Virus record (IMG/VR): IMGVR_UViG_3300045988_122072
Coordinates: 96,001-160,000 of that record
DNA: 64,000 nucleotides
Origin: a virus
Direction: 5' to 3' (one strand)
The position numbers and the translations under genes were made by a program. The notes under the pieces are model-generated. The model was not told the DNA's origin, did not search any database, and was given only the letters and a program-made list of their open reading frames with translations. This document shows, piece by piece, positions 31,573 through 59,370 of the stretch. Positions within the stretch are counted from its first letter, which is position 1. The number at the start of each line of letters is the position of its first letter.

Positions 31573-31590
31573 ATTGCTCACCTCCTATAA

Positions 31591-37694: not shown

Positions 37695-40600
37695 TCATCT
37701 TGTGAACCTTTTTAAACTATTGTTAACGCCCTTCATATAAGAATCTAGTTGAGCCTTAACTGCATCCTTAATATCAGGTATAGAATCCCTATCAGCATGT
37801 TCGATATTGATCATATTGCCGAATGACATATTAAGCTCAATACTATTATTGATAATATAAGGAGCGCCAATCTTAGGTTTATTTCTGTCAAGAATATCTT
37901 TCGGATCTAGAGTCCCAAGCTTCATAAGATTATCAGTAATATCACTTGGAATCACAGAACTGCCTTTACTTAGATATTGTAACCTACCATTCGTGTCTGC
38001 ATGTAATACTAATTCTTCTAGCCCAAGTTCGTCAGTAATTGCAAATTGGTCGTTTGGAACTTTCTTAATACCTTTTGCATATCCCTCTATGTCGCTTAAC
38101 TTGATCCAGCCAGTATACTGTCCGTTTCTGCCAATTAGCACTTCAGAGCCACTAACTTGATAAACAGTAAATGTAGAACCAGGAACCCAAGATTGCATTC
38201 TAGTACCATTGCCGCCATCTCTAGTAAAGTGAGTAGCAGACTTCTTAACAGTCACGCTAGAACCATTAGCCGGAGCAGCAGGTTTTTGAGGAGCACTAGG
38301 TTGTTGTGGAGTAGATGGCGTTGGAGTAGTATATGTCGCACTAGATGTCTTGTTGGCATTTTGATTAGTAGCGTCAATTAAATGTCTTGCTGTCTCATCC
38401 GCCGCAGCTTGTAAATCAAGAAGTTGTTTCTTAATTGCTTCTAGTTGCGCAGTAAACGCACTTGTAGATGTATTTAATTGATCTTGATAAGTACCTATCG
38501 CAATTACGCCTTGTTCCCAAGGATTTGTAATTGCTTCTGACAAATTAATGCCATATTCATCGGCAATTTCTTTTAATGTCCCTGCAACTACTTCTGTATT
38601 TCCAGTAATTGTCGCAAAACTATCAGCGATTACTTGCTCAACATTCTTTAGATATTCATCAAGAGCTTCCATCTCTTTTTCTTTTTCGTCTTGATAGTTC
38701 TCTGCTTGATCGTCCAACGCATCTTGTTGTTTCTCGATACTATGACTATAATATAACTCATCTAATTCTTCTTGTGCTGCGGCAAGTTCCGCTTCAAGCT
38801 TCTTTCTTCTGGCAATAGCACTTGCGGAATTATCCCCAGCTATTGCAGCAAGTTGCTTTTGAATATTTGCAATATTCTTTTGTTGCTCTTCTACCTGCTT
38901 AGAGAAATCATGAGCATCTTTAGAAAGTTGCAATTCCTCTTTCTTTTTATTTATAAGCTCATTATAAGCGTCAATTTCCTCTTGCATCGCATTTTTTGCA
39001 GCATCAACACGAGTTTTATTAAGAGCAATAAGAGCATCTTTTGCAGCCTCATATGACTTTATACTATCCCATTGTCCGTCTTTGAGTTCTTGTAGTTTTT
39101 CGTTATACTCATCTGTACTATACTTTCCAGCGGCATATTCTTGATTAAGGTATTCAATTTGTTCTGCATATTGTTTTGCCCTATATTGGGCGCGTTCCAT
39201 TTCTTGGGCAAGTAGACCCATTTTAGTGATGCCCTCATTAGTCCAATTGCCCATTTCATCGGCAATATCCTCATCATCGATTAAATCGCCTAAATTAGAT
39301 ATTTCATTGCCGACATTATCAATAGCTTTAATAAGACCATCAAAGTTATCCCAGTGTAACTGATTGATAGAATTTTGGAATCCTTCAATCTCTTTACGGC
39401 AGTCAATAATAGCCTTGTCAACATCTTGAATTGCGGCGACCCCTTCATACCATTCCTCAGAGCCGACATCAATATTGCCAGCAGAAACCTGAGCATCAAA
39501 TTCTTTTTGCATGTCATTGCGTTTCTTTTGAAGTTCATCGAGTTCTTTGATGCTATTCTTAATCATTTCTTCATACATTACTGCAGAAGTACGTTCGCCT
39601 TGCTCGTCTATCAGATCAACGTTCGCCTGAAGCAAATCGTTAAGAGTTGTAATCTTAGTAATAACTCTATCATACTCATCCGCAATAGTTTGCACTTTTT
39701 GTAATGAGAGTGATGTAATTTCTTTCTTGACTTGTTGCTGTTGTGTTCTTACATCTGATGCTTTTTGTGCCCATTCACGATAGTTATTAATTGCCTCTAC
39801 AACTTCTTGATTAGCTTCTCCTAAGAATTCTGTTAAAGCAACACCGCCATTTTTAGCAAGCTCTTGATATTGCTGTGGTATCTTCTCTAAAAGTTGTGCG
39901 GCATAATCCGCATAAAGTTTATAACCTTCTCCAAGTTCTGTCAATTTATACTTATTAACATTGATCATTTGATCTTGAATATCATTTTTAGCAGAAATAC
40001 CTACGGCATTTTCTAGTGCTGCGGACATATAATTTAAATCATCATCAATCTCTTCAAGCAAAACTGCGAACCAATCGAACATTTCTTCAAAATCATTGGC
40101 AGCATCAGAAAGATCATCTCCAGCGTCAGATAAACTATCTGCTGCATCATTCAAATCTGTCCAGAAATTATCATTCTTAGCGCCACTATAATAAGTTGGC
40201 GTCGTATAATCTGGAACGATTGTTACATGTGCATTACCTTCAGAGTAGGCTTTGCCACGAGAATTGATATGCCCGTTCTTGAACAACTCTTCGGTTTGCT
40301 TGTGATTAAAGATAATTGCATTCTTTGGCAAATCTACAAATTCTGCGCCATTATCTCCAACAGTATAATATTTGCCAGTTTTAGGGTCTACAACGGTTTC
40401 CATCCCGAGTTCGCCAACTAAAGCATCATCTTCTGCTTGTGGCAATCCCCAATTACCAGATGCATGAGCTGTGCCATCTGCATATATTGTCAGTCGTCCG
40501 CTCGCACCAGGAGTATGAACTGTTTGTTCGGTTCCCTTACCGATGGTTTGATAAGCTGTTGTAATTGTAAATGTTTTATCACTAATGCTTGTCGCATTAA

Positions 40601-43600
40601 GCTTATCAAGTTTCGCTTGAACTGCACTTACGTTTTCTCCTGTTGCTACAAGCTCAGAAGATGTAGATTCAATCTCGCTTTCTAGATTTGAAATAGCTCC
40701 AGTATCTCCAACATAATGGAGTAATTTAGCCGTTTTATCTGCATCCTGACCAATACCTTCAAGAAGATTCTTAACGACAACTCCATCAACTTCCAATCCT
40801 TTGGTATCAAGTTGGAATAGTTCATCACTTGTCCATTTCCCATCATTTTGCTTCGCTTCGTCAATAAGTCCCCAGATATACTTATCTACAGTATTGGAGT
40901 CAAGCAATTGTGGGCCATTTTCTGTCTGTAAAATCGGAGTAAACGATATGTCTTCTCCATCAAATTCACCAACAGAACTTAATAAAGTGGAATATGTGCC
41001 AACCAAATCATCGGCTTTCATGCCCCAACTATCTATTGCGTCGCCATACTTATCAAGTGACTCTTCGTCCCAATATAGTTCCTGACGATCATTAGTATCT
41101 ACATTCCCATATTTTGTTTGAGATAAATCTGTGCCAATGTCATCTGCAAGAGATTTAGCATTAAGTACATCTGTTACATATTGATTAATAAGATTGTCAA
41201 GTTCTCTCATTCCGTCAGAAGTGTCATCAATGGCAGACGCTACCTCTTTGCCAGTATAAGAACCGTTGCCCTGCAAATCTTTTACAACGCCAGCAAGGCC
41301 AACTGAACTAAAGCCAGATGATTCAACGGCTTTGTCTCCGCCGAGACTAAACATTTCCATAATAGTATTAAGATAACCATCTTTATATTTGGAAAGTTCG
41401 CCCTCAAATCCAGTCCAATCTTTTTCATCATACTCTCCAGGAACAGCACGAATAACCAAGTTATACTTATCAGAATCAAGAAGATCCTGCGTTGATCCAT
41501 TCGTGACAAGACCATCTATATAGTCGGCAAGTGCATCAGATGTTAAAACATCTCCATTCTCAAGAACAGGAGTAATATCAATAGTATACTTATTCTTATC
41601 CCCAATTGTTACAGTCTCTGCGGAAGTACTTGCATAGATTTCTCCGTCAGAGCCGATGAATGAATTGTATCCTCCACCCATAGCAAGATCATGTTCATAC
41701 GATGGAGATAAATGTGGACGTTTACGAAGGTCTACATTACCGTTTACCAATTTTTCATATTGCGCGCACATTTCTTCAGCATATTTAGCAAGCTTATTAA
41801 GTTTTAGCTTATCAAATATGTTGCTGATAACATTTGTCCCGCTTGCATATGCTTTGCCTCTACTATTAATATAACCATTTTTAAGCAGAGATTTTGTTTG
41901 CTTATGGTTAAATATAATATCGCCTTTTTTGACATCAGCAAACTCTGCGCCATTTTCTCCAAGCATATCCCAACGATTTCCACGCACACGAAGTTCTGGG
42001 CCTAATTCACCAACTAAAGATGTATCAGCTGATTCTGCACCCCAATTGCCAGAAGCGTGAGCCGTACCATTAGCCATTGTAGAATTTAATTCATAACGGC
42101 TACGACGTCCACTATGCTTCGTCGCTGTCTGATTTTCATTTACCTCACGATATGTAGTAGTTACAGTAACACCAGTAGGAACTCTGTCAATTGCGTCAAT
42201 CAAATTATTAATTGATTTTACGGCAGCAGTGCTATCAACACTTGGGTCTGGGAGTGCCTCAATAGCCTTCTTCGCTGCTTCTGCGGCAGTTTTTACTTCT
42301 TCAATTTGTGCCTTTGCCTCTTCTTTATTTTCAACAAGAAGGTTAATAACTCCTTTGTCATTCAATAAATCCACGTACTGTTGTAGCTTCTGACGCTCAT
42401 CATCAGTGATCTCTACATCTGGCTTGATTTTATATCTACCATCTTCTCCAAGCTCTACAAGCTTACTATCATCTATATTAGCTATATTCGCTTTGACTGC
42501 CAGCTCGTTATTATTTGCTTTCCACACAGCCATTTGAGAGTCTATGTCATCTAACGCAAGCTGAATTGATACCTCTGTGGGTTCTTCTAGATTGTACTTT
42601 TTCTTTAATGCCTCTCCAAGTTGTTCAGTTAATTCTTTAACTTTTTTAGTTTGTGCATTTATTTCTTCTTGAGTATATCCACTATTAGGTTGATTCATTT
42701 CATTCAGCTTTTTCGTAGCTTGTTCAACTTCATCTTTTAAATTTGTGACTTCCTTCGTGACATTTTGATACTCTACAGCATTCTTTCTTGCATCTTCTGC
42801 GCAACCTTGTAGCTTACTATTAGCTTCCTGATATTTTTGTGCCCATTCTTCAACGCCAATTTCATTATTTGCTAAAGCGACATCCAGCTCCGCCAAATTT
42901 TTAGTCGCCATAAAAATATTGCCTTCAAGACCTAAGTCAAGCTGGTCGAAAACGGAACCAAAGTCTCCATTTAACCATTCTGCATCATAAGAATCAATTT
43001 CTGTAAACATTGCAAAAGCCATTTCTTTTGTAATTTTCATCTTATCACAGAAATCATCTAATGTTTTAATATCACTTGAAAGCTCAAAATGTTGCCAATC
43101 ACCTTTATTTGTAAATACCCCTTTTTCTTGAGCGCTTTCAATGAACGCCTGAACATTATCTAAGGTCATCTCTGCGCTTTCAAGGGTGCCATCATCACTA
43201 AATTTCAATGTAAAATATTTACTGAAATCCGAATTCTTTAAATAATTGGCAATAGCAGCGACTTTTTCTTCTACCGTATCAAAACCAGCATAAACATCTT
43301 CTGGAATCATACCTGCCACAGCAGCCTTAAAAGATTCTGTTCCAAGTTTTGCTGATTGCAATCCTTCAATAAGTCCAGAAATCATATCTTCTGCTTTGCT
43401 GCCATAATCCTTTGCTTCATCGGCAGATTTTGCGTCTTCATATTTTTGATATGCATCCGCAGCTCCAAGCAACTTCTGTTCAAGAAGGCTATACTTTGCG
43501 ATTGTTCTTTCTACTGCTCCCATTTCTTTATAAAGAGCATTAATTTCTTTTGCGTTAGCTTGCGCGAGTTCGCCATTTGCTCCAGTTAATTGCTTAATTT

Positions 43601-46229
43601 TCTTATACAGCTCATAATACTTTAATCTAGCTTGAGACCTTTCAGTTCTTGCATTTTGAGCAGCTTCTTGTCTCTTCTTTGTAATCAGCTTGTTAAGCAG
43701 TGACGCATTTTTAACCACGTATCCATTTGTTGTGTCAATTGCATCTGCATATTCTTTTTCATCACCAATGAGTGTTTTTAATGCTTCGCCCTGTTCGTCA
43801 GTAAGTTTTATTTTATCATAAACTACTTCGTTTTGAACAGATTGTGCACTAGTAACTTTATCAATTTCATCAGCATAATTAGAAAAAGTACTACCAACTG
43901 GATCGACTTTATTAAGCTCAGCGTGTGCGGCGGCAGAACCTAAAGAATTAATTTGATCCACAGCATCTTGTGTACTAAGCCCAATTTTATTTAACTCATT
44001 CCTAAATTCGCTATAATCTGAACCATTTAACGAATCTGCTGTAAGTTCTCCAGTCTCCGCCAAAGAATATAATTTCTTTTTAACCTCTGGATACTTTTCT
44101 AATAGAGCATCAAATTGTTCGGTATAATATTCACCTGGGTTAATTGTTTTATCTATATCAAGTGCCATTTGCTTAAGCTTATTTGCGAAATCATCATCGA
44201 CATTTTCGCCATAATTATCTAGATAATCATATAGCTCTGTTCCATATGTAGATAATGTTTCTTTAAGATTTTGCATTGATGATTCAATTGACTTCTTTTT
44301 AGAATCTAGGGCAGACTTTTCGTCCTCACTCATTGCACTAGTATCTGTATTAATAAGCTCATTCCATTCTTGCCTTAACTCATTATATTTTTCAATGCCC
44401 TTTTGAATATAGCCTTCTTTGTCTATACTACCATCAGAAATATATTTTAAATCTCCATTCAGTTCATCAGATATTTGTGCCTCAACTCTTAGTAACTCTG
44501 CTACTGCCTCATCGCTTAATTCTCCCCATTGCGATACATCGGCAAGCATATTATACAACTTTTCAGAATACGGTTTAATTGCATTTCTTAAATTATCATT
44601 AATGATTTGATTATTTTTTGCATTTTCTATTTCAGCCTTGGCAATTGTGGCATTACCATACCTTTCGTCATCTTTATTGGTTTTAACTTCTTCTATGCTT
44701 AAGTTTTTAACATTAAAATCTTTTTTATAATCTTCTTTTGTTTCTTTCTGTAGTTCTTTTTGCTTAGAATCTTTGCTTTCGTTTAACAGTCTTAATCTTC
44801 TTTCCAATTCCTCATTGGTTTGTTTTAAAGTTTCTAATTCTTCTTTTTCTACAAAAGATAGGTTATGTTTTCCTTCTAGCTCTTCAATTCTATTTTTAGT
44901 AGTCTCAAGTTCAGAATTTAGGCTTTCAATTTCATTATTTAGATCTTGAATTTCATTCTTTAATTTCTCTGATGCTGGAGTCATATTAGCTATCCAAGTA
45001 ACCAACGATATAACTAAAGTAATAGCCATCAAAATCCATCCAACCGGATTAGACGCCATTAAAGATTTCAGTGCTGCCGCAACGCCATGAATAGACGTAG
45101 AAAGTCCTTGATTCGCAGCGGTCAAACCAAATGCAGATATAATTTCTGCGCCCTGAGCGGCAGTTAATGTCCCCGTTGCTACCGCTTCTTGAACTTTTGC
45201 TAATGTCAGTTCTGTTTCTCCCTGAGTTAAAAGCCAGTTGGTTGATTCAGCAGAAAGCTTTACTGCTCCCTCAGCAGCCATTGCTGCAGCATTTGCAGCA
45301 GTAACCGTAGTTTGTTCAGTTTTTGCAGTCGTTACTTGGGCCTCTGATACTGCCTGTTGTATATTCGCTTTATCTACTCCGTTTTTGGCCATTGCTTCTT
45401 CTATTTGTGCCTTTGTTAAACCAGCAGAAGCAAGAGCTGCCGCCTGTTGCTTCGCGGTTAAATCACTAACTGCGGCAGCATACGCACTAAGATTTTGCAC
45501 ATTAAATTCGGCAGCAGATATTTTACCAGCTTCTCCAAGTCCATTTAATGATTGAATTGCCTTAATTTTCTCCAATGCCTGTCCATAATTAGATACATTG
45601 GCGGAAATTTCTTTAAACATAGTAACTGGGTTTATCTTTTTAGAGATTAATAAATATGAAACTACTCCTGCTAATACTGATTTAAATAACCCAAATGAGT
45701 CTACAGCTTTTACAACTGCGGTTCCTAAATTAACGAAAAATTTAATCCAGCTACTGTCGAGCGCATCAGACCACATTGTCTGAACTGCATTTTTAAATAG
45801 GGTGATTCTTCCCTGAATGCTGTTAAGTTGTTTTTCATTTTCAGCCATTGCAGAACCTTCTGCATCTAATGCGTCTTGATATGCACCTTCAAGGTCTTCA
45901 ATATTGGTAAGCATTGCAGCCATAGCATTTGAACGGTTTTTACCAGCGAGCATTTCAAGTAATGCCGCCTGATCAATGTCGCTCATATCTTTCCAGACAG
46001 TCGCAATTTCTTTTATAATATCATATGTTGCCTTATAGTCGCCGGTTTCAGTTAAAATATCTACACCAGTTAAAGCTTTAACTTTAGATTGAAGCTTGCT
46101 GACACTCTCTACTACATTATCAGTTTCTTCGCCTAGTGATTCCAATTCCTCTACACTTGTACCTCTAATACGTAGTGAGATGGTACGGAGGGCACTTCCT
46201 ACGCTTGATGGATCCTGTAATACTTTATT
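37695..46229 (-). CDS. Tape measure protein, exon 2 (2844 codons plus stop)
   Basis: Frame is open upstream of the ORF-track TTG start back to 46232. It begins NKVLQDPSSVGSALRTISLRIRG. A TM segment and long coiled coils follow. There are two GTAHASGNWG...LVGELG...NSRGKAY modules and a C-terminal SH3-like segment. Confidence 0.75.
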   Translation of the reverse strand, partial: NKVLQDPSSVGSALRTISLRIRGTSVEELESLGEETDNVVESVSKLQSKVKALTGVDILTETGDYKATYDIIKEIATVWKDMSDIDQAALLEMLAGKNRSNAMAAMLTNIEDLEGAYQDALDAEGSAMAENEKQLNSIQGRITLFKNAVQTMWSDALDSSWIKFFVNLGTAVVKAVDSFGLFKSVLAGVVSYLLISKKINPVTMFKEISANVSNYGQALEKIKAIQSLNGLGEAGKISAAEFNVQNLSAYAAAVSDLTAKQQAAALASAGLTKAQIEEAMAKNGVDKANIQQAVSEAQVTTAKTEQTTVTAANAAAMAAEGAVKLSAESTNWLLTQGETELTLAKVQEAVATGTLTAAQGAEIISAFGLTAANQGLSTSIHGVAAALKSLMASNPVGWILMAITLVISLVTWIANMTPASEKLKNEIQDLNNEIESLNSELETTKNRIEELEGKHNLSFVEKEELETLKQTNEELERRLRLLNESKDSKQKELQKETKEDYKKDFNVKNLSIEEVKTNKDDERYGNATIAKAEIENAKNNQIINDNLRNAIKPYSEKLYNMLADVSQWGELSDEAVAELLRVEAQISDELNGDLKYISDGSIDKEGYIQKGIEKYNELRQEWNELINTDTSAMSEDEKSALDSKKKSIESSMQNLKETLSTYGTELYDYLDNYGENVDDDFANKLKQMALDIDKTINPGEYYTEQFDALLEKYPEVKKKLYSLAETGELTADSLNGSDYSEFRNELNKIGLSTQDAVDQINSLGSAAAHAELNKVDPVGSTFSNYADEIDKVTSAQSVQNEVVYDKIKLTDEQGEALKTLIGDEKEYADAIDTTNGYVVKNASLLNKLITKKRQEAAQNARTERSQARLKYYELYKKIKQLTGANGELAQANAKEINALYKEMGAVERTIAKYSLLEQKLLGAADAYQKYEDAKSADEAKDYGSKAEDMISGLIEGLQSAKLGTESFKAAVAGMIPEDVYAGFDTVEEKVAAIANYLKNSDFSKYFTLKFSDDGTLESAEMTLDNVQAFIESAQEKGVFTNKGDWQHFELSSDIKTLDDFCDKMKITKEMAFAMFTEIDSYDAEWLNGDFGSVFDQLDLGLEGNIFMATKNLAELDVALANNEIGVEEWAQKYQEANSKLQGCAEDARKNAVEYQNVTKEVTNLKDEVEQATKKLNEMNQPNSGYTQEEINAQTKKVKELTEQLGEALKKKYNLEEPTEVSIQLALDDIDSQMAVWKANNNELAVKANIANIDDSKLVELGEDGRYKIKPDVEITDDERQKLQQYVDLLNDKGVINLLVENKEEAKAQIEEVKTAAEAAKKAIEALPDPSVDSTAAVKSINNLIDAIDRVPTGVTVTTTYREVNENQTATKHSGRRSRYELNSTMANGTAHASGNWGAESADTSLVGELGPELRVRGNRWDMLGENGAEFADVKKGDIIFNHKQTKSLLKNGYINSRGKAYASGTNVISNIFDKLKLNKLAKYAEEMCAQYEKLVNGNVDLRKRPHLSPSYEHDLAMGGGYNSFIGSDGEIYASTSAETVTIGDKNKYTIDITPVLENGDVLTSDALADYIDGLVTNGSTQDLLDSDKYNLVIRAVPGEYDEKDWTGFEGELSKYKDGYLNTIMEMFSLGGDKAVESSGFSSVGLAGVVKDLQGNGSYTGKEVASAIDDTSDGMRELDNLINQYVTDVLNAKSLADDIGTDLSQTKYGNVDTNDRQELYWDEESLDKYGDAIDSWGMKADDLVGTYSTLLSSVGEFDGEDISFTPILQTENGPQLLDSNTVDKYIWGLIDEAKQNDGKWTSDELFQLDTKGLEVDGVVVKNLLEGIGQDADKTAKLLHYVGDTGAISNLESEIESTSSELVATGENVSAVQAKLDKLNATSISDKTFTITTAYQTIGKGTEQTVHTPGASGRLTIYADGTAHASGNWGLPQAEDDALVGELGMETVVDPKTGKYYTVGDNGAEFVDLPKNAIIFNHKQTEELFKNGHINSRGKAYSEGNAHVTIVPDYTTPTYYSGAKNDNFWTDLNDAADSLSDAGDDLSDAANDFEEMFDWFAVLLEEIDDDLNYMSAALENAVGISAKNDIQDQMINVNKYKLTELGEGYKLYADYAAQLLEKIPQQYQELAKNGGVALTEFLGEANQEVVEAINNYREWAQKASDVRTQQQQVKKEITSLSLQKVQTIADEYDRVITKITTLNDLLQANVDLIDEQGERTSAVMYEEMIKNSIKELDELQKKRNDMQKEFDAQVSAGNIDVGSEEWYEGVAAIQDVDKAIIDCRKEIEGFQNSINQLHWDNFDGLIKAIDNVGNEISNLGDLIDDEDIADEMGNWTNEGITKMGLLAQEMERAQYRAKQYAEQIEYLNQEYAAGKYSTDEYNEKLQELKDGQWDSIKSYEAAKDALIALNKTRVDAAKNAMQEEIDAYNELINKKKEELQLSKDAHDFSKQVEEQQKNIANIQKQLAAIAGDNSASAIARRKKLEAELAAAQEELDELYYSHSIEKQQDALDDQAENYQDEKEKEMEALDEYLKNVEQVIADSFATITGNTEVVAGTLKEIADEYGINLSEAITNPWEQGVIAIGTYQDQLNTSTSAFTAQLEAIKKQLLDLQAAADETARHLIDATNQNANKTSSATYTTPTPSTPQQPSAPQKPAAPANGSSVTVKKSATHFTRDGGNGTRMQSWVPGSTFTVYQVSGSEVLIGRNGQYTGWIKLSDIEGYAKGIKKVPNDQFAITDELGLEELVLHADTNGRLQYLSKGSSVIPSDITDNLMKLGTLDPKDILDRNKPKIGAPYIINNSIELNMSFGNMINIEHADRDSIPDIKDAVKAQLDSYMKGVNNSLKRFTR

Positions 46230-46271
46230 CTTTTATATTTAATACGTTTCGCAACAACGTATTGCATGTTA

Positions 46272-47417: not shown

Positions 47418-47450
47418 AATTTTATCTCCCGTATATTATCAAAATAAATT

Positions 47451-47624
47451 TCATTTTCTACTATAAAAAATAGCCAATGCATTAAAAAGATCTGACGATT
47501 TTGTATATTTATATGTAGTTACACCATTTATAATTTTAACAAAGGATGGTTTTATACCAATTGTTAATAAATAATCTCTCTCTGGTGTATATTGCGTAGA
47601 ATATTCTTTATCAAATTTTTTCAT
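47451..47624 (-). CDS. small DUF5659-like protein (57 aa) inside the intron
   Basis: ATG 47624 follows GAGGGAAAT. DYLLTIGIKPSFVKIINGVTTYKY...LFNALAIFY resembles the DUF5659 pattern (memory). Confidence 0.4.
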   Translation of the reverse strand: MKKFDKEYSTQYTPERDYLLTIGIKPSFVKIINGVTTYKYTKSSDLFNALAIFYSRK

Positions 47625-47863
47625 ATTTCCCTCTCTAAATAATAACATGCCAATATATTTCTATATTGAATAGACCATATCTTCATCCTCAGCATTACCT
47701 GTTAGGAGCACACCATTTCGTTTAAAGGTATTTAACCAACGCCATTTGCGATTGCGTCCTACTCCTATTGATTTGAGTATTCGGGATTTTACCCTTATTT
47801 TATAATCAATTAGATATTCTCAAATCCCTTCATGGGGATGGCCGTTGAACCTTTTGCTTGATT

Positions 47864-47908
47864 TTAATTTTGTATTGTATATTATATCACAAAATTTAAA
47901 TTTGTCAA
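47864..47908 (-). promoter_or_regulatory. Early-type promoter plus leader box inside the tape-measure intron
   Basis: The minus strand reads CTTGACAAAT, 16-nt spacer, TGaTATAAT, then ACAATACAAAATTAA (47878-47864). Confidence 0.65.
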
Positions 47909-48059
47909 GCAACTTGGATGCTGATTGCCCAATCTTTATAATTTTTAAACATTCACACCTGTTATTACTAACTATGTTGTAGTTTATAAAGCTCTAAGGG
48001 TTTCCCAGCAATTAAATGTGTTCAAATCATATATTTCTATATGAACAGCCATAAAATAT

Positions 48060-51000: not shown

Positions 51001-54000
51001 TTTACGTTATTAAGCTCTGCGACATCAGTTGCTCTATTTTCTTCATAGCCTAAAAGTTGTCTGGATTTTGCCGTATTAGTGCCTGCCTGTTTAAGTGCAG
51101 TAAGTTTATCATTGGCTAGTTTTTCTAATGCCGCAAGACGAGCCTCTTGTTCTTTTTTGGTCATTTCAGAAACATCTTTTAATCCAGCAGCCGCAGATTC
51201 AGATCCAGCAGTCGCACTTTCAATGCCTTTTTCTATAGCTTTTTTAGCAACCTCCGATGTCTTCTTGACAACTTGTTCTGCACCAGTCTTGACAGTTTCA
51301 GCTATTGGAGTAGAATCAACTTCGCCAATTAATATATCAAGATTTTGAATGTCAGAATCTGATCCGCCATACAACTTAGCATATGCTCTATTGCGAGCTT
51401 CTGTTATATTAGCAATTTCTTCTTTTGATATACCACCATAGGCTTTCTGCTGTTCTATAGATAACTCTGCATCTCTAACTTCTCTTTCCAAAGCTTCTTT
51501 AATTCCAAGGAAATATGCATTTTTCTTTCTGTATAGATCTGCTAGATTTACGCGGAATCCTTTGCCATCGGTAAATACTTTATCTTCAGCAGTTTCTTCT
51601 TCTAAACGAGTAACATCTTCAGAAATTGTACTCATATATGCCGAGATGCTTTCTCCTAACTTTTTATTTACAGAATCATATATTCTCTTACGGAGACTTT
51701 TTTCTAATTCATCTGCTTGATTAAAAACGGTACTAACTTGCTTACCAAATGCTGTTTCAACTTGATCTTTGCCAGTACCCTTTGTCATTGTCATTCCACT
51801 TAATTTTGATTGTAAAATTCCTTTAAGCTGATCATCGACAGAATCTTCTCCAAAATTTTCAACCAATAATTTAGCGAAATTGTCATAATAAATATCAAAG
51901 AATTTTTGTGTCTTTTTATTAATAATATTTTTAATCTCTTCTCCATTATTTAACGATGCTCTTTTAACATCAAAAATACCTCTTACACGAGAAATTTCGC
52001 TTATCAGCTCATCGTTAGACAAGTCTTCATTCTTTAATATTTCTTCTATCGCAGCATTTTCGGCATTATTTATTTTTCTAAGTCTAGACTCTATTGCCTC
52101 TTGAATTTCCTGCTCCATAGTTGCCTGAGCAGTGTCCCATGCAGTTTGATGTAAAGCCACGCCAGCTTCATCATATTTAGACTTAACAAAATTAGAAGCA
52201 ACATCTTGGTACATATTGTTTATTACTTCAGAAATACGATTAGCAATTGCATTTTGAAGCTCATCAACTTTTTCTTGTGCTTTTTCATATAATGACGCCC
52301 TATAAGTTCTAAATTCATCTGTAGATGTGTAATTTGAAACGAACATCTTTTGCAGATTGTCTGCCGCAGATGATTTATTACCATATATAGTAGTAAATCC
52401 ACCTTGCTCTTTATTGAATGTAAGCTTTTGTGCTTTCTGAACATCTTTCGTATAATCTCCAAGCTTGCTAATTTGTTCATTATTTCTGATAATGACTTGT
52501 TGAAGCTCTTGAATTTTTTTAAGTGCATTAAACTTTTTCTGCTCAGGGGACAAACTTTCATCAAAAATATTGGATGAGTTAATGCCGTTAATTTCTTTAA
52601 GCTTATTATATAACTCTGTTACTTCTGTATTTATAATGTTTAAAGCTTGTGTTTTTTCACTAAGAGTTACTGGCGATGCCCCAGATTCCTCAAGCCTATT
52701 AATTTCCCGTACAAGTTCAAGCTCTTCGCTCTTTTTTTGATTATATTCAACTTGCAATTGAGCTACTTGTTTGTTTCTTTCTGCAATTTTTAATTCCTGT
52801 TCTGCTTTTTGAACTTGATTGTCTAAAGATTCTCTTTCTAACTCAATAGACTTTTTTTGTTCTACCAATGGCATCAACGAGGATCTTTGCGATGCAACAG
52901 TATCTTCATATTTATTAACAACGCTATTGCCAACTTCGTATTGTTGTAAAGGAAGTTTTGCCTTTTTAATATACGTACCATATTGCTGAATAATCGAAGA
53001 AATATAATTATTGATAACAGAATTTAGATTACTAATATCAGCGTTAATTTCTTTTTTTGATCTTGCATTATCAACAGATTCTTTCAAAGCATCTATTTTA
53101 CGCTGTAAGATTGCCTGAATTTCAGTGCTCCCTTTATCATTCGCTTCTTTTAATCTTTGTTTATAATCCTTTAATTCAGCCTTCGCATTATCATAGTTAC
53201 TTTTTTCATTAAATAATTCCGCTCTTTGCTGTAATAAAGTTTGTAGCTCTTTTGGGAAAATTTCTAAATTTGATAAATCAAAGTTCTTGCTATTTTTAAA
53301 TTGTTGAAGGGCATCAATCTGTTGTTTTAAAGAATCACGTACATTTTTTGAATTATAAAATGACTGTTTATCCATTCCAGCGAACAAATCTTTCAAATCT
53401 GCATCGTTTAACCCTAAATCATTGCTAATATTCATAATAGAATCAAATAGGCCGTTTAAACTCTCTTGTGCTGTTTGAATTTGAACTGCGACTTTATCAT
53501 ATTCCGCTGTTCCGGCCTGTTTCCCTTTAAGGATTTTCTCAAGAGAAGATAAATCCTGCTGCCTTTGTTTGTATTCCTCAATAGTGGTCTGTAACTGTTC
53601 AAAAAGATTATCATCAAGTTTCTGTTTTTGTTCTGTAACAGATTGCTGAATTTGTCTATTAATTTCCTGCAAAGTAGTCTCTTGTTCTTTTGCTTTTGAT
53701 TCAAATTCAGAAGAAACTTTTTCTCCCTTTTGAACCTTAGTATAATTAACAAGTCTACTTTTACTTTGTTCTAACTCATTTTGTTTATCTGCTAATTCAA
53801 TTTGATATTTAGACAACAATCCCTTATTTTCAGATTCCTTTGCGGCCGAAATTTTAGATTCAATTTCTTTAATTTCTTTGTCAATCGCTTCTTGTTTTTT
53901 TTGCTCAGTAGAAATGGCTTTACTTAAAAGCTCTGGAGATTCTTCGTATTTTTTATACTGCTTGGAAGTATTTACAGTAGTGGCCAATCTTGATTCTACT

Positions 54001-57000
54001 TGCTTTTTTGCCTCAAGTAGTTGAATATAATTATCAGATAAGTTTTTCCCTTCAAACTTTAATGTGCTTTTATTTGGAGTTTTGCTCTGATACTTAACCA
54101 TCAGATCATAAATGTCTTTTTGTTGTTTATAATCTGATTTAAGTGATTCTATTTCTGAAGATTCAGAATAAGAAAAAGATTTAACACTATCGAGCACACT
54201 TTGTGCTGAAGCAACTCCGTCTCTAGCAACCTGCAGCTTTTGATTTATTTCTTCTTCTTGCTTTGCGAGTTGAGCAAATTTTTCATCTCTTGCTTTCTTA
54301 GCTGCCTCTAATTGTTCAGAACTCTTTTGAATATTTTCTTCAGCGACAGAAAGCCTTTCTCCCCAATCAATAGAATATTCATCATTTACTTTAATTTGAG
54401 ACACGTCAAACGGTGCGGGTCTTGGGTTATCTTTTGAATAGAATTGGGTTTGCGCACTTAACTTTGCGTTCTTATTCAAAAGATTATTAATCATTCTTAA
54501 TGCTTTACGTTTTGACGTAGGGGAATCAGATCTGTCTATTATCGTAGGTCTATTAATACCTTCATAATAAATATCGGCATTCAGATCAGACAACATATTA
54601 TTGGAGATACCATAAGCTGTCATTTTACCTTTGCCATTTTTCGCACTAGCTATTTTTAGTCCGGCTCCCTTTTCTCCTTTTCCAAGTTGTCCCAATAATG
54701 TCTGTCTAGAAATAACAACATTATCACCAGCAACCATGCGATTTAACCAACTAACAATATCATTGGCAATTTTTGTAGACGCGTCATCCCCAGAAATTTT
54801 AGACATTGCATCAATAGCTGTTCTAAGAGCATCCCCATGTATAATTTCTTCAGATGGATTAACCCCAACCATAGAATTTAAAAGAGTTTTTGTATCCTCA
54901 CTTGCAGTCCCATAAAACTGCTTAAACATGTTTAATAATGCAGTATACTCATTGCTCTCGCCTTTGGATAAGCCTTTAGTGGCAATCACTTGTTTGTTGT
55001 ATTCATTTATATTAGAATATAATGTATTAATTGACTTCCCAATTTCATCAATATTAGCTTTATATTCTTCAGAAGAAGTTGTAGATTGTAAATCCTTTAA
55101 AAAACTACCTAGTTCAGATAACAGCTGCTTAGTGTCACCTTTTTCTCCTTTAAGCGAATCAATAACGTCTGCCGTTCTTGCATATTTCTGATAAAACTTT
55201 AGCATTTCTGGAGCATTATAGTCTCTATTAATTTTTTCATTGCCAGAAATTGTAGATAAGCCTAAAGATTTAAACAGAGATTCTAATGTGCCGCTTTTAC
55301 CAAGTAACGGGGATAATAGAGCAGTTTGATTCTTATAAGATCCCTTCCATTTACCTGATAGATCGGATAAGTCTGACCCCAAAAGTTCTCCCTTGAATCC
55401 GCCTGTCTTAGTATTCTTTTGCAAAAGCCCGGTTAAAACATTTCTCACATATTCTTCTGTCATTTTTGACAAATCAGTATCTTCGCCAAAAATATTCTGC
55501 AAATAATTCGCCATAGGAGATAGCTTTGCCACTTTTCCATTTGTCATCTTCACAGTTCTGTCGCTAACTTCTTCACCCTTGGCAATTTTATCATTCATTG
55601 CTTTTTGTTTTGAAAGTGACTTATAATATGTCTCTCCAAAATTTTTAGCAAATGCAGTAAGCTGGGCAACCGTTTTTGACATCAGCACCGCGCTCTTACT
55701 ATTTTCTGTAGATGCCATTTTCTGATCTCTTGCGGCATCCGATTGAGCATCAGCAGCTCCTAAATTTTCAGAAGCAGCTTTAGATTGATCTGACGCGGCG
55801 CTTGCTTGAGTATTTGCAGCAGAACTTTGAGTATCAGCAGCGGATGCACTAGAAGTTGTAACCCCACTACCCAAAACTGGCATTACTCCGCCAGAATAAG
55901 TTGCCCCAGAAATGTTTGCAGATATATTAAATGTCTTACTATTGAGAACATTTTCAATTTCTCCAATTAAAAACTCGCCATCTACATACAGTTTTAATGG
56001 CTGTTCGTTAAATAATGCTTCCATTGCAGAAGTAATATTGCTAATATCTTTATTATCAAGTTTTAGCATATTCATCAATTGAGCTTTAATTTCTCTAGCA
56101 TCCGCTTCAATTGAAGTTCTTGCATCATGAATAGACTTTTTTAACGATTCTAGTTGTTCTTTTAATTTTGCAGATGGATCTGTTTTTTCGCCTTCGCCTT
56201 CTTGTTTACTATCGTCAAACGCTATTGACATCGGGATTTTTTTGATTCTTGTCGTTTGTTTAATAATTTTATCAATAAAACCATTAATCTTTTCTACATA
56301 TGCATCAATTTCTGCATCTGCAGGAACATCAAGCTTTAATTCTATAGACTTCAGACCTGCTTTTTCAAGCATTTCTTGTAGCTGGCCTGATAATTGTTGC
56401 ACGGACTCTTTTGCACTATTCAATCTATTTTCTAATTCAGTTACAACTTTGTCTAAATTAGACCCATATGTACTTATTTCTTCCTTGAATGCCGAGCTGT
56501 TAATTCCAAGATCTTTTGATAAACTTCCAGAATATTTACGTCCGATTGCTATAATATTTTGAAGAACGTCTCCGAGCTTTTGTAGCTTATCTATAGGAAG
56601 ATTTTGCAAAAAGTCAACATCGACATCATTCCAGCCAACGATTTTATCAAATTCGTCACCTAGCTTGCCGAATTCTTTAACTATATCTTTATTTTTTAAA
56701 TCAATTGTAATTTCTGGATTTTTTAACTTTGCTAAAAAGTCTTCCATTTCCTTGCCCTTTTTGGCAAGACCCATATCAGAATTTTTAAATTTATTTACCA
56801 CATTAATAGCCGCATTAAAAGATGTAACAATCTTATTTGCAGTCTGTTCTACACTAGTTTGTGTTTTGACTGCATCAACTGTAATATCTTTAAAAAAAGT
56901 TTTTCCAGTTGGATGATTACTTTTATATTGTTGTCCAATCGTATTATAAAACCCAACAATTTTTGCAGCAAGCCCATCGAACCCTTCACCGGCCTCCGAA

Positions 57001-57656
57001 AGCTGTGGCATCATGCCCTTAAGATCGGTCAAAGTTTGTGCAAGCGCTCTGCTGCTTACGTCCCACCCCTTGTTTGTTGCTTGTGTAAGACCAATCTGAA
57101 ACTCACTAACCATTTGGGTCAATTGCCCCATTAAAGAGCTAAGCTTTTCTTTATCGGTTGATTTGCTAATATCATTAATAATGCCTTTAATAGACTCTGC
57201 GGTATCCTTAAGTTTACCAGTCGCTCCCTTTTCGTCATAAACAAATAGATCTGAAAGTCTGGAAAATAGATCAGACGGAAGTGATTTAACAGTATCACTA
57301 AGGCTTGCAAAATTTTCTCTAATATCTTTGATACTTCCAGAAAGTTTTGCAATATCATCCCTATTTTGCTTTAATCCGTCAAAAATCTTAGGTGCGCTAA
57401 CGCCGCCTAATTCTCTTTCAAGCTGAAGCAATCTATCTACAGATTCAACAATGTCCGCAGTTTGCTGTTTTACTTGCTCAAATCCTTTATTCCCTTTATT
57501 CTGAATACCAGAGTCAAAACTCTTTTGCGTTGCTTTAATTTTTTTATCTAAATTTTCTAAACCATCACTTAATGTTTTTAATTCTTTTTGATAATCTTTA
57601 TTTAATTCAACAGTAATACCATACGCATATTGCGCACTAGGCCCTCTGCTACCCAT
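48060..57656 (-). CDS. Tape measure protein, exon 1 (about 3199 codons)
   Basis: ATG 57656 follows GAGGTG (TTG 57674 is also possible). Very long K/E/Q/L-rich coiled coil. It ends in the TP901-type core ...LNEIGNNFAISSDGIATALQDSASSLMAAGNNLEQSVALVAAA. The ORF-track tail IFYGCSYRNI* is intron read-through. Confidence 0.75.
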
Positions 57657-57666
57657 ACTTTTCACC

Positions 57667-59278: not shown

Positions 59279-59370
59279 ATAACTCCTCCTCATCATCATT
59301 ACAAATTTCCGTAAACCTACATTACGAGTTGCAAACTTACGCAAACCTATAATGCAACTCCTTTTATCCT

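What the first reader, a model, noticed from the sequence alone, without database searches (positions are those of the whole stretch)
37695..57656. Spliced tape-measure protein would be about 6,040 aa, implying an extreme tail length or a non-ruler function
Size arithmetic:
- Exon 1 (57656-48060) is 9597 nt, or 3199 codons.
- Exon 2 (46229-37695) is 8535 nt, or 2844 codons plus the stop.
- Together they give about 6,043 aa.

With the usual rule of thumb of about 0.15 nm of tail per tape-measure residue, this predicts roughly 0.9 um. The longest tape measures I know of are about 5,000 aa (long-tailed Thermus phages P23-45/P74-26).

The conserved core sits in the middle, preceded by about 3,000 aa of K/E/Q/L-rich coiled coil. 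That is an atypical layout. Either the virion tail is extraordinarily long, or much of this protein is processed or has another role.
Basis: inference. Interest (0 to 1): 0.7.

Follow-up and report, generated by a model that had tools for sequence, protein, structure and literature searches.

The report
Intron-split 6,043-residue phage tape measure gene
A gut phage of about 160 kb carries a tail "ruler" gene that is split by a self-splicing intron and, once spliced, encodes 6,043 residues (longer than the 5,002-residue published record), so the phage either builds a tail of roughly 0.9-1 micrometre or carries a large extra cargo on its ruler protein.

Summary
Exon 1 (57656-48060, minus strand) and exon 2 (46229-37695) are separated by a 1,830-nt group I intron. 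Joined, they give one stop-free 6,043-aa tape measure protein (TMP).

The junction does not rest on prediction alone. Intron-less relatives in IMG/VR read straight across it, and two of them encode the whole protein as a single uninterrupted ORF of 5,671 and 5,679 aa. Other relatives splice to 6,039 and 6,205 aa.

The intron is 99% identical to a 503-nt ORF-less intron at the same site in a relative, plus a 1.3-kb insert that carries an HNH endonuclease gene. Its ribozyme core resembles the Twort nrdE intron.

The TP901-type core sits at aa 3,078-3,295, against about 520-700 in phiL47, Kirov and Sundance. The 3,000-aa N-terminal extension is found only in this family. It looks mostly helical and contains a conserved candidate JAB/MPN-like domain. 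It has no P23-45-type RNA polymerase motif.

Measured relatives (0.147-0.162 nm per residue) predict a tail of 0.89-0.98 µm. Whether the whole protein acts as ruler cannot be settled in silico. I rate it a new variant of a known kind, of moderate to high interest.

The parts
48060..57656 (-). TMP exon 1, 3,199 codons (aa 1-3,199). It covers the family-specific N-terminal extension and the first half of the TP901-type core.
   Evidence: ORF listing and translation. PF10145 matches the end of the exon at profile positions 3-122. TIGR01760 and phrog_4211 also match. The start Met is conserved in relatives.
46230..48059 (-). Group I intron, 1,830 nt. The 5' exon ends in U and the intron ends in G. 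P1 pairs exon GCAGCU with the intron guide GGCUGU, with a U.G pair at the splice site.
   Evidence: Sequence. Rfam RF00028 matches the full-length model at 48069..47651 with 39.9 bits and E 7.7e-9 in a narrow search; this is below the curated cut-off of 50. blastn gives 78.5% identity to the I-TwoI intron of Twort nrdE. The intron is 99% identical to the 503-nt ORF-less intron at the same site in M106160.
47627..48059 (-). 5' ribozyme segment of the intron (intron nt 1-433, P1 to P9).
   Evidence: blastn to the M106160 ORF-less intron gives 98.8% identity over 433 nt. The Rfam alignment of that homologue shows the P7 and P9 elements.
46304..47626 (-). 1,323-nt insertion in the 3' periphery of the intron. 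It carries the two intron ORFs and is absent from the ORF-less allele.
46272..47417 (-). Intron-encoded 381-aa HNH-type homing endonuclease candidate.
   Evidence: phrog_1271 HNH endonuclease, E 1.3e-17, and phrog_1891. An HNH motif, VVHHIRGFN...NIHKQFHN, is visible in the sequence.
47452..47624 (-). Small 57-aa ORF inside the intron insertion; function unknown.
   Evidence: Sequence. No Pfam match.
37695..46229 (-). TMP exon 2, 2,844 codons plus the stop (aa 3,200-6,043).
   Evidence: phrog_4211 continues colinearly, from profile position 758 at the end of exon 1 to 765 at the start of exon 2.
45942..48425 (-). TP901-type TMP core (PF10145, aa 3,078-3,295). The intron interrupts it after aa 3,199.
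   Evidence: On the spliced sequence, PF10145 matches 3-201/201 at 88.2 bits and TIGR01760 matches 17-299 at 111.7 bits.
50277..50924 (-). Conserved globular domain in the N-terminal extension (about aa 2,245-2,460). It is a candidate JAB/MPN (JAMM)-like metallopeptidase with invariant E2247, H2282, H2284, S2296 and D2299.
   Evidence: Alignments A3, A4 and A5. The AF2 model has pLDDT 80-95 over most of the domain, with HxH on a beta-strand followed by a helix that starts at S..D. Foldseek support is weak: BFVD E 7e-6 to uncharacterised phage proteins and E 0.01-0.1 to MPN and RadC proteins; PDB E 0.16-0.19 to RadC and JAMM1. Pfam and PDB sequence searches were negative.
44988..45056 (-). Hydrophobic, transmembrane-like segment (aa 3,591-3,613) downstream of the core, at the end of an Ala-rich region.
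   Evidence: Kyte-Doolittle scan.
41877..42170 (-). Module A (aa 4,553-4,650): ...GTAHASGNWG...LVGELGPE...IIFNHKQT.... First copy of an internal duplication.
   Evidence: Self-comparison gives 48% identity to aa 5,086-5,184, E 5e-22.
40275..40571 (-). Module A' (aa 5,086-5,184), second copy of the duplication. Relatives have an intron at aa 5,145/5,146 inside this motif.
40476..41837 (-). Insert of about 454 aa (aa 4,664-5,117). It is poor in helix-forming residues, has two GNVD-containing units, and is absent from the M081894-type relatives.
   Evidence: tblastn gaps in relatives. Composition. No Pfam or PDB match.
57667..58158 (-). 163-aa protein immediately upstream of the TMP. It is conserved in synteny and is a candidate tail assembly chaperone (inferred from position only).
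   Evidence: 58-100% identity and the same position in all relatives with a complete locus. No family match.
58173..58739 (-). 188-aa protein upstream of the 163-aa gene. It is conserved in synteny and is a candidate tail assembly chaperone (inferred from position only).
   Evidence: No family match.
36522..37622 (-). Distal-tail-type protein (DUF6558 N- and C-terminal domains) directly downstream of the TMP.
   Evidence: Pfam PF20195 and PF20753. Syntenic in relatives.
31591..36507 (-). 1,638-aa minor tail protein, in the position of a tail-associated lysin or tip protein.
   Evidence: phrog_6211 minor tail protein, E 1.5e-36. Syntenic in relatives.
29800..31581 (-). 593-aa tail fibre-type protein (DUF859 'Siphovirus protein' plus a Peptidase_S74 intramolecular chaperone).
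   Evidence: Pfam. phrog_372.

Best explanation
This is one genuine tape measure protein gene of a phage of about 150-170 kb. The phage is probably siphovirus-like and probably infects gut Oscillospiraceae or Ruminococcus-type Firmicutes.

Shown:
- The gene is interrupted inside its most conserved stretch, the TP901-type core, by a mobile group I intron.
- The intron ribozyme resembles the I-TwoI intron of Twort nrdE.
- The intron has acquired a 1.3-kb insert that encodes an HNH homing endonuclease.
- Removing the intron joins ...VALVAAA to NKVLQDP... and yields a 6,043-aa protein.
- Relatives encode the same protein either intron-free as a single ORF or with introns at other sites.
- The giant size (5,671-6,205 aa) is a conserved family trait and is not due to tandem repeats.

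Inferred:
- The protein is built into the tail as the length ruler. Its C-terminus sits at the Dit/Tal tip complex, and the chain extends as a mostly helical bundle through the tube.
- At the 0.147-0.162 nm per residue measured for phiL47 and Hotorobo, the tail would be about 0.85-1.0 µm. That equals or exceeds the tails of P23-45 and P74-26.
- On infection the TMP is ejected. The hydrophobic segment would help form the channel. The embedded JAB/MPN-like domain would act as a peptidase, either on the TMP itself or on a host target.
For: Gene structure and arithmetic.

Intron:
- RF00028 matches at 39.9 bits, E 7.7e-9.
- Homologous ORF-less introns in relatives score 42.1 bits (E 1.9e-8) and 29 bits (E 1.2e-5).
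- The intron resembles the Twort nrdE intron that houses I-TwoI.
- P1 with a U.G pair and the terminal G are visible in the sequence.
- The window intron equals the 503-nt intron of M106160 plus an insert that carries the ORFs.

Junction and single-protein status:
- M081894 and M085488 have uninterrupted ORFs of 5,671 and 5,679 aa that align along the whole window protein.
- The alignment across the junction has no gaps.
- M126550 splices to 6,039 aa and M106160 to 6,205 aa.
- A 5,652-aa homologue is present in the representative protein library.

TMP identity:
- PF10145, TIGR01760 and phrog_4211 match.
- The Dit-like, minor-tail and DUF859 genes follow directly downstream.
- A hydrophobic segment lies after the core.

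Ruler calibration:
- phiL47 has a 3,275-aa TMP and a 480-nm tail.
- Hotorobo has a 9,984-bp TMP gene and a 540-nm tail.

Helical tendency:
- AF2 on aa 1-1,100 assigns about 66% of residues to helix, but at low confidence.
- Composition favours helix in about 64% of the protein.

The extreme N-terminus is invariant across the family. There are no large tandem repeats.
Against: - No particle has been seen, so no tail length, virion proteomics or splicing assay exists.
- The Rfam score is below the curated cut-off.
- The AF2 model of the N-terminus has a mean pLDDT of only 50, and no coiled-coil predictor was run. 'Extended helical ruler' therefore rests on weak predictions.
- At least about 1,100-1,500 residues look non-helical or globular and would add less than 0.15 nm each. 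These are aa 573-632, about 2,245-2,460, 4,551-5,200 and 5,861-6,043.
- P23-45 shows that the N-terminal part of a giant TMP can be an enzyme, not a ruler (PMC10770324).
- No tube, sheath or capsid genes were seen, in the window or in the flanks fetched. Siphovirus morphology is therefore inferred only from the Dit-type and DUF859-type tip genes.
Confidence: 0.55

Rival explanations
1. The protein is real and spliced, but only the part from roughly the TP901 core to the C-terminus (about 3,000 aa) measures the tail. That would give an 'ordinary long' tail of 400-500 nm, as in phiL47 and Kirov-type phages. The family-specific N-terminal 2,500-3,000 aa would be a cargo or effector arm. It would be folded back, housed in the neck or head, or cleaved off. 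It could be released by its own JAB/MPN-like peptidase and delivered into the cell with the DNA, much as the P23-45 TMP carries a virion RNA polymerase.
For: - The extension has no homologue outside this family: only 7 hits among 1.84 billion representative proteins, all of them N-termini of giant proteins.
- Isolated relatives have only 520-700 aa before the core.
- A conserved globular domain with an intact E...HxH...S..D motif sits in the extension.
- P23-45 gp96 is a precedent (PMC10770324).
- The first 1,040 aa have the weakest helix-favouring composition of the long segments, 48%.
Against: - No conserved DxDxD RNA polymerase motif was found.
- No enzymatic family was detected by Pfam, NCBIfam or PDB sequence searches anywhere in the extension.
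- Apart from one domain of about 220 aa, AF2 and composition point to long helices.
- In P23-45 the tail is still close to 1 µm despite the fused enzyme.
- The JAB assignment itself is weak: the Foldseek search of the PDB is not significant.
Confidence: 0.3
2. The two ORFs are separate genes, and the sequence between them is an ordinary intergenic region with a free-standing endonuclease gene. On this reading no 6,043-aa protein is ever made.
For: The Rfam gathering-threshold scan of the window found no intron. The exon 1 frame ends at a stop 11 codons into the intervening sequence, so a 3,209-aa protein could be made from unspliced RNA.
Against: - The PF10145 and TIGR01760 domain is cut in half at the boundary and is restored by joining the exons.
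- Several relatives read through the exact junction. Two of them carry the whole protein as one ORF.
- The intervening sequence is a full-length group I ribozyme match.
- It is 99% identical to an ORF-less intron at the same site in a relative.
Confidence: 0.02
3. The giant ORF is a decaying or non-functional relic, or an assembly chimera, with no biological role at this size.
For: All the evidence comes from metagenome-derived contigs. One relative, L002 (4.7x coverage), has two in-frame TAA codons.
Against: - The window carries 18.1 kb of coding sequence with no stop or frameshift.
- The same architecture appears on more than 15 independent contigs of 150-170 kb, at 38-98% protein identity.
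- Length and synteny are conserved across that divergence, which implies purifying selection.
Confidence: 0.03

Closest known systems
Thermus phages P23-45 and P74-26, TMP gp96 (5,002 aa), which have the longest measured viral tails (almost 1 µm)
   Same: Both are giant TMPs encoded by a single gene. Length is thought to set an extreme tail length, and the N-terminal region lies beyond the usual TMP layout (PMC10770324, PMC10034513).
   Different: - The window protein is about 1,040 aa longer.
- No sequence relationship was detected.
- It has no conserved DxDxD motif, so there is no evidence for a fused virion RNA polymerase.
- Its core is of the TP901 / PF10145 type.
- The host is probably a mesophilic gut Firmicute, not Thermus.
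- The gene carries a group I intron.
TMPs of large Firmicutes siphoviruses: Lactococcus phiL47 / 949 group (3,275 aa, 480-nm tail), Bacillus Kirov (3,055 aa) and Brevibacillus Sundance (2,528 aa, SPbeta-like)
   Same: They share the TP901-type core (tblastn 24-34% identity over the core) and phrog_4211 colinearity. The TMP is followed by tail-tip genes (a distal tail protein in Kirov, tail component or minor tail proteins in phiL47 and Sundance). The genomes are large (125-170 kb) and carry tRNAs. In phiL47 the structural genes also lie downstream of the holin.
   Different: - The core starts 520-700 aa from the N-terminus in those phages and about 3,050-3,080 aa here.
- The window protein is about twice as long.
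- Its N-terminal 3,000 aa have no counterpart in any isolated phage in the phage collection searched (no tblastn match for aa 1-1,599; only the core matched for aa 1,600-3,199).
- Those phages have an integrase-like gene directly upstream of the TMP. Here two small conserved ORFs and a RuvC-like gene occupy that position.
The group I intron of Staphylococcus phage Twort nrdE that houses the HNH endonuclease I-TwoI, and related introns in AR9/PBS1, phiR1-37 and Kayvirus-type phages
   Same: The ribozyme 5' half is 75-82% identical over 115-150 nt. The match in Twort lies directly upstream of the I-TwoI gene, inside the three-piece nrdE CDS. Both introns carry an HNH-type endonuclease ORF.
   Different: The host gene differs: TMP here, ribonucleotide reductase in Twort. 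Here the endonuclease ORF sits in a 1.3-kb insertion near the 3' end, after a complete P1-P9 core, and an ORF-less allele exists at the same site. Splicing has not been tested here.
Introns in phage structural genes (for example Cluster J mycobacteriophage capsid and tail genes, PMC3706429)
   Same: Self-splicing introns interrupt highly conserved parts of virion genes (one search lists such papers; they were not read in detail).
   Different: In this family a single gene carries introns at eight or more different sites across genomes, up to two or three per gene, and most lie within about 200 codons of the core.
JAB/MPN (JAMM) domains of phage and polyvalent proteins (RadC-like JAB, lambda gpK MPN domain); this comparison is from my own knowledge
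   Same: The motif order E...HxH...S..D is the same, and it sits on a beta-strand followed by a helix. Weak fold matches were found to RadC, PfJAMM1 and viral MPN proteins.
   Different: There are 14 residues between the second His and the Asp, more than I recall for the classical JAMM motif (about 10, from memory). Pfam and PDB sequence searches gave no match. As far as I know, this domain has not been reported inside a TMP.

Membership tests
Phage tail tape measure protein, TP901 family (PF10145 / TIGR01760) | A match to the conserved core domain above the curated cut-off | tested here: met
   On the spliced sequence, PF10145 scores 88.2 bits (cut-off 33.2) over profile positions 3-201/201. 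TIGR01760 scores 111.7 bits (cut-off 28.8). phrog_4211 matches at E 1e-34 and 1e-30, colinear across the junction.
Phage tail tape measure protein, TP901 family (PF10145 / TIGR01760) | A position in the tail module, immediately upstream of the distal tail and tail tip genes and downstream of the chaperone genes | tested here: met
   The downstream genes are a DUF6558 tail protein, a phrog_6211 minor tail protein and a DUF859 / S74 fibre. The two small upstream ORFs are syntenic in all relatives, but their chaperone identity is only positional.
Phage tail tape measure protein, TP901 family (PF10145 / TIGR01760) | A predominantly alpha-helical, extended protein with hydrophobic segment(s) after the core | tested here: inconclusive
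   AF2 on aa 1-1,100 assigns 66% of residues to helix, but at pLDDT 50. Crude composition favours helix for 64% of the protein. One transmembrane-like segment lies at aa 3,591-3,613. No coiled-coil predictor was available.
Phage tail tape measure protein, TP901 family (PF10145 / TIGR01760) | Protein length determines tail length (about 0.15 nm per residue) | not testable with these tools
   This needs EM of particles. Only calibration from relatives is available: phiL47 at 0.147 nm/aa and Hotorobo at 0.162 nm/aa.
Group I self-splicing intron (Rfam RF00028) | A covariance-model match to the catalytic core | tested here: inconclusive
   The full-length model match scores 39.9 bits, E 7.7e-9, in a 471-nt search. 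That is below the curated gathering score of 50, and the match was missed in the whole-window and 2.6-kb scans. Homologous ORF-less introns in relatives score 42.1 and 29 bits.
Group I self-splicing intron (Rfam RF00028) | A 5' exon ending in U that pairs with G of an internal guide sequence (P1), and an intron ending in G | tested here: met
   Exon ...GCAGCU | AUAUUUUAUGGCUGU... gives a 6-bp P1 with a U.G pair at the splice site. The intron ends ...AUAAAAG | AAUAAA. The relative's intron at aa 3,210/3,211 shows the same pattern, GUCGGU | ...GCCGAC.
Group I self-splicing intron (Rfam RF00028) | Precise excision restores an uninterrupted, conserved coding sequence | tested here: met
   Intron-less homologues read ...AAANKVLQDP... 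with no gap. The spliced CDS has no internal stop.
Group I self-splicing intron (Rfam RF00028) | Homology to an experimentally characterised group I intron | tested here: met
   78.5% identity over 148 nt to the Twort nrdE intron region directly upstream of I-TwoI. That the Twort introns self-splice comes from the literature as quoted in PMC3888941 and from my own knowledge.
Group I self-splicing intron (Rfam RF00028) | GTP-dependent self-splicing in vitro or ligated exons in vivo | not testable with these tools
   No RNA data are available.
JAB/MPN+ (JAMM) metallopeptidase | The catalytic motif E ... HxH ... S-x-x-D, conserved | tested here: met
   E2247, H2282, H2284, S2296 and D2299 are invariant in 7 family members at 50-92% identity. 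The spacing between HxH and D is longer than I recall for the classical motif (from memory).
JAB/MPN+ (JAMM) metallopeptidase | The MPN fold | tested here: inconclusive
   The AF2 domain has pLDDT 80-95. In the Foldseek PDB search the best-probability hits are RadC (2qlc) and PfJAMM1 (5lda), at E 0.16-0.19 and TM about 0.4. The BFVD search lists MPN, RadC and deubiquitinase proteins at E 0.01-0.1. Its top hits (E 7e-6) are uncharacterised.
JAB/MPN+ (JAMM) metallopeptidase | A sequence-profile match (Pfam JAB families or PDB JAB chains) | tested here: not met
   No JAB family appears in Pfam even at E up to 10. A profile search of PDB sequences found no JAB chain.
TMP-fused two-barrel virion RNA polymerase (P23-45 gp96 type) | A conserved metal-binding DxDxD (DFDGD) motif in the N-terminal region | tested here: not met
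   The only DxDxD in the protein is DVDVD at aa 344. It is not conserved in relatives, and no pair of invariant Asp residues lies within 5 columns among the homologues.

The most novel reading that the evidence does not exclude
A whole family of gut phages of about 160 kb, probably infecting Oscillospiraceae or Ruminococcus, builds non-contractile tails of about 0.9-1.0 µm. That would be the longest of any virus and the first such case outside thermophiles. The ruler would be a 5,700-6,200-aa TMP of a new architecture, in which the family-specific N-terminal half carries a self-processing JAMM-type peptidase. The TMP core in this family also serves as a hot spot for group I intron homing, with eight or more insertion sites.
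Probability: 0.35. Interest if true: 0.75.

Novelty: new variant of a known kind. Interest (0 to 1): 0.6.

Why it matters
If the whole protein is a ruler, these abundant but uncultured gut phages would take the tail-length record from the Thermus phages. They would also show that micrometre tails are not a thermophile oddity. That raises questions about how about 225 tube rings assemble faithfully and what a 1-µm reach achieves in the gut, for example crossing capsules or mucus.

If only half is a ruler, the family offers a second, independent case, after P23-45, of a TMP used as a delivery vehicle for a large N-terminal cargo. In this case the cargo would include a candidate protease.

Either way, annotation pipelines break this gene into two to four 'hypothetical proteins' because of its introns, so TMP-length surveys miss it. 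The family also provides a natural series of intron-plus, intron-minus and endonuclease-less alleles at many sites in one structural gene. That series is useful for studying intron homing in phage populations.

Tried and rejected
- Rfam at the gathering threshold on the whole window found only tRNAs. Rfam at E up to 10 on 45800-48400 also missed the intron. The intron appeared only in a 471-nt search.
- In that database no hit was longer than about 2,200 aa. The JAB-domain query found nothing at all, not even the known relatives. Giant proteins therefore seem to be under-represented there.
- megablast, blastn and tblastn against the isolated-phage collection gave no close relative, and nothing for TMP aa 1-1,599.
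- A genome-contig scan with the TMP C-terminus gave no relative in 185,579 species representatives. A common prophage origin is therefore unlikely.
- I rejected stop-codon recoding as the explanation for the split ORFs in relative L002. The two in-frame stops are TAA in a 4.7x assembly, and the window has no suppressor tRNA.
- I rejected a P23-45-like RNA polymerase, because no conserved DxDxD motif is present.
- PDB sequence searches gave nothing for aa 2,254-3,199, for the insert at aa 4,660-5,120, for the profile of the N-terminal 3,100 aa, or for the JAB-domain profile.
- Tandem Repeats Finder found no repeat expansion that could explain the length.
- Alignment A2 of the aa 4,540-5,210 region was poor, so I did not use it for structure prediction.
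- PHROG annotation of the genes upstream in relatives found tail-fibre-like and endolysin genes, but no tube, sheath or capsid gene. Virion morphology could therefore not be settled.

Full report

The minus strand carries two very long ORFs, 48027..57674 and 37695..46145, with a 381-aa ORF between them. Joining 57674-48060 to 46229-37695 gives one frame of 6,049 codons whose only stop is the terminal one. Counted from the ATG at 57656, which follows GGTGAGGTGA, the product is 6,043 aa. The same Met and the same first 17 residues, MG(S/K)RGPSAQYAYGIT, are conserved in all relatives.

**2. The intervening sequence is a group I intron**

The 5' exon ends in U (48060) and the intron ends in G (46230). 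The exon end GCAGCU can pair with GGCUGU fifteen bases into the intron, forming a P1 helix with the canonical U.G pair at the splice site.

Rfam at the gathering threshold, and a 2.6-kb E-value scan, both missed the intron. A 471-nt search then gave a full-length RF00028 match at 48069..47651, with 39.9 bits and E 7.7e-9. That score is below the curated cut-off of 50.

blastn links the first 160 nt or so of the intron to known phage introns. In Twort the match lies directly upstream of the HNH endonuclease gene I-TwoI, inside the three-piece nrdE CDS.

The strongest evidence is comparative. The window intron is 99% identical, over nt 1-433 and 1757-1830, to a 503-nt ORF-less intron at the same codon in relative M106160. 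The difference is a 1,323-nt insertion that carries a 57-aa ORF and the 381-aa HNH-type ORF (phrog_1271, E 1.3e-17). The ORF-less version scores 42.1 bits for RF00028.

**3. The junction is confirmed by intron-less homologues**

IMG/VR holds a family of contigs of 150-170 kb, all from dataset 3300045988, with the same tail module.

- M126550 reads ...EQSVALVAAANKVLQDPNSVG... straight across the window's splice site. Its own 281-nt intron lies 11 codons further on (RF00028 29 bits, E 1.2e-5).
- M081894 and M085488 encode the entire protein as a single uninterrupted ORF of 5,671 and 5,679 aa. The alignment across the junction is 96/110 identical with no gap.
- The spliced proteins of M126550 and M106160 are 6,039 and 6,205 aa.
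- A 5,652-aa homologue is also present in the 1.84-billion-protein representative library.

Splicing in the window completes the conserved domain. PF10145 goes from profile positions 3-122 at 55.5 bits to 3-201/201 at 88.2 bits. TIGR01760 goes from 62 to 111.7 bits. phrog_4211 runs colinearly from profile position 758 at the end of exon 1 to 765 at the start of exon 2.

**4. It is a tape measure protein in a tail module**

Downstream lie three tail genes:

- a DUF6558 tail protein in the position of a distal tail protein;
- a 1,638-aa minor tail protein (phrog_6211);
- a DUF859 'Siphovirus protein' with an S74 chaperone domain.

Upstream are two small ORFs (188 and 163 aa) that keep their position in all relatives. 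They are possible chaperones, but this rests on position only. Further upstream come a RuvC-like gene, a holin and an endolysin.

The rest of the window encodes nucleotide metabolism, tRNA-repair genes, six tRNAs and an integrase. It is therefore part of a large phage genome.

No relative was found in 185,579 bacterial species representatives. Endolysin relatives point to gut Oscillospiraceae and Ruminococcus as likely hosts, which is suggestive only.

**5. Architecture of the 6,043-aa protein**

| Region (aa) | Feature | Evidence |
|---|---|---|
| 1 to ~3,050 | N-terminal extension, specific to this family | |
| ~2,245-2,460 | Best-conserved stretch of the extension; globular alpha/beta domain | |
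| 3,078-3,295 | TP901-type core | |
| after the core to ~3,620 | Ala-rich region ending in a hydrophobic segment at 3,591-3,613 | |
| 3,621-4,550 | Long region whose composition favours helix | |
| 4,553-4,650 and 5,086-5,184 | Duplicated module, 48% identical | |
| 4,664-5,117 | Helix-poor insert between the two modules, absent from M081894-type relatives | |
| 5,201-5,860 | Second long region whose composition favours helix | |
| ~5,861-6,043 | Pro/Thr-rich linker and a helix-poor C-terminal region | |

The first 1,200 aa of the extension hit only 7 of 1.84 billion representative proteins. Six match from their own first residue and are 3,124-5,652 aa long; the seventh is an 84-aa fragment. 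No isolated phage matches aa 1-1,599, and only the core matched for aa 1,600-3,199.

AF2 on aa 1-1,100 gives 66% helix at low confidence (mean pLDDT 50). It also shows an unstructured low-complexity stretch at aa 573-632. A crude composition scan favours helix in 48% of aa 1-1,040 and in 73-78% of aa 1,041-2,230 and 2,601-3,040.

The domain at aa 2,245-2,460 has invariant E2247, H2282, H2284, S2296 and D2299. In the AF2 model (pLDDT 80-95) the HxH lies on a strand that is followed by a helix starting at S..D. That is the JAB/MPN arrangement.

- Foldseek against the PDB is not significant, but its best-probability hits are RadC and PfJAMM1.
- BFVD gives E 7e-6 to uncharacterised gut-phage proteins, and E 0.01-0.1 to MPN, RadC and deubiquitinase proteins.
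- Pfam and PDB sequence searches are negative.

I therefore call it a candidate JAMM-like peptidase and do not count it as a member of that family.

No tandem-repeat expansion explains the length of the gene.

**6. How unusual is it?**

The literature held here describes P23-45 gp96 (5,002 aa) as a giant TMP (PMC10770324). [quoted passage not shown] A phrase search for 'longest', 'largest' or 'giant tape measure' returned only the Gordonia phages, whose TMP genes are about 10 kb.

The nearest isolated relatives by core similarity have much shorter TMPs, with the core near the N-terminus:

| Phage | TMP length (aa) | Core starts at about (aa) |
|---|---|---|
| phiL47 | 3,275 | 590 |
| Kirov | 3,055 | 520 |
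| Sundance | 2,528 | 700 |
| This window | 6,043 | 3,050-3,080 |

The window protein is thus about 1,040 aa longer than the published record, and one relative exceeds that record by about 1,200 aa. The extra length lies almost entirely N-terminal to the core.

**7. Tail-length inference**

Two measured systems give the conversion factor. phiL47 has 3,275 aa and a 480-nm tail, or 0.147 nm per residue. Hotorobo has a 9,984-bp TMP gene and a 540-nm tail, or 0.162 nm per residue.

Applied to 6,043 aa, these give 0.89-0.98 µm. The range across the family is 0.83-1.0 µm. Discounting the roughly 1,100-1,500 residues that look non-helical would lower the estimate somewhat.

**8. The rival view**

P23-45 shows that the N-terminal 1,100 aa or so of a giant TMP can be a virion RNA polymerase. 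I tested for its DxDxD signature. The only instance, DVDVD at aa 344, is not conserved, and no other enzyme family was detected in the extension.

The candidate JAB-like domain keeps alive the idea that the extension is processed or has a role after ejection. On that reading the ruler would be about 3,000 aa and the tail about 450 nm. I weigh whole-length ruler at about 0.55 and cargo or processed at about 0.3. Only EM and virion proteomics can decide.

**9. An additional finding: an intron hot spot**

Across the family the TMP gene carries introns at eight or more sites, in window aa numbering:

- ~3,098-3,110
- 3,142/3
- 3,199/3,200
- 3,210/1
- 3,225/6
- 3,287/8
- 5,145/6
- 5,637/9

They occur with and without endonuclease ORFs, up to two or three per gene, and several genomes have none. 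The sites cluster in the most conserved protein segments, as expected for homing elements.

**10. Verdict**

The gene is a new variant of a known kind: an extreme TP901-type TMP with a family-specific 3,000-aa N-terminal extension, split by a mobile group I intron. Interest is moderate to high. It would become high if micrometre tails, or a processed cargo arm, were shown experimentally.

Noticed in passing
window 22802-25526 (+): The ribonucleotide reductase large subunit appears to be split. ORF 22802-23629 matches phrog_84 profile positions 247-489, and ORF 24087-25526 matches positions 512-973. A gap of about 457 nt lies between them. Rfam found nothing in the gap at E up to 0.1, so a second intron is possible but unproven. 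An HNH endonuclease ORF lies just downstream at 25585-26328.
   Followed up: partly
relatives L001-L029 (IMG/VR 3300045988 and ENA contigs): The TMP gene of this phage family carries intron-like insertions at eight or more sites, most of them within about 200 codons of the TP901 core. Sizes range from 281 nt without an ORF to 1.8 kb with ORFs of 240-474 aa. Some genomes have none.
   Followed up: partly
L002 positions 3023 and 8318: Relative L002 (ENA NODE_3140, 4.7x coverage) has two in-frame TAA codons inside an otherwise continuous 13-kb TMP frame. They are probably assembly errors or a defective copy. No suppressor tRNA was seen in the window.
   Followed up: partly
window 1045-2842 (+): There are six phage tRNAs: Asp-GTC, Asn-GTT, Ile-TAT (unusually long at 96 nt), Gln-TTG, Gly-TCC and Lys-TTT. 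Several of them decode residues that are abundant in the giant TMP (K, N, D, Q, I). Whether they support its translation is speculation.
   Followed up: no
window 19124-20236 (+): A TnpB / IS605-type transposase gene (phrog_506, E 9e-136) sits inside the phage replication and nucleotide-metabolism region.
   Followed up: no
window 8338-18958 (+): A set of RNA repair and modification genes is present: RNA ligase (8338-9444), nucleotidyltransferase (9710-10519), polynucleotide kinase-like (11107-12033), tRNA-His guanylyltransferase-like (14061-14894) and NAD-dependent DNA ligase (17054-18958). This may be a counter-measure against tRNA-cleaving defence systems.
   Followed up: no
window 58784-61204 (-): The gene order is unusual. 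Endolysin, holin and a RuvC-like resolvase lie directly upstream of the tail assembly and TMP genes, not after the tail genes. phiL47 also has its structural genes downstream of the holin. phiL47, Kirov and Sundance have an integrase-like gene immediately upstream of the TMP where this phage has other genes.
   Followed up: no
window 40275-42170 (-), TMP aa 4,553-5,184: There is an internal duplication of a 100-aa module (GTAHASGNWG...LVGELG...IIFNHKQT). The two copies flank an insert of about 454 aa that is poor in helix-forming residues. The insert is present only in the window's closest clade and has no Pfam or PDB match.
   Followed up: partly
window 27854-29005 (+): A tyrosine integrase gene (phrog_1, E 5e-72) lies between the tail module and the metabolism module, which suggests a temperate lifestyle. 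Even so, no related prophage was found in 185,579 species-representative genomes.
   Followed up: partly
tool behaviour: the search for homologous proteins never returned a protein longer than about 2,200 aa. It also found no hit for the JAB-like domain, although relatives exist. Giant ORFs therefore seem to be missing from that index or unreachable in it, and absence of hits there is not evidence of absence.
   Followed up: no
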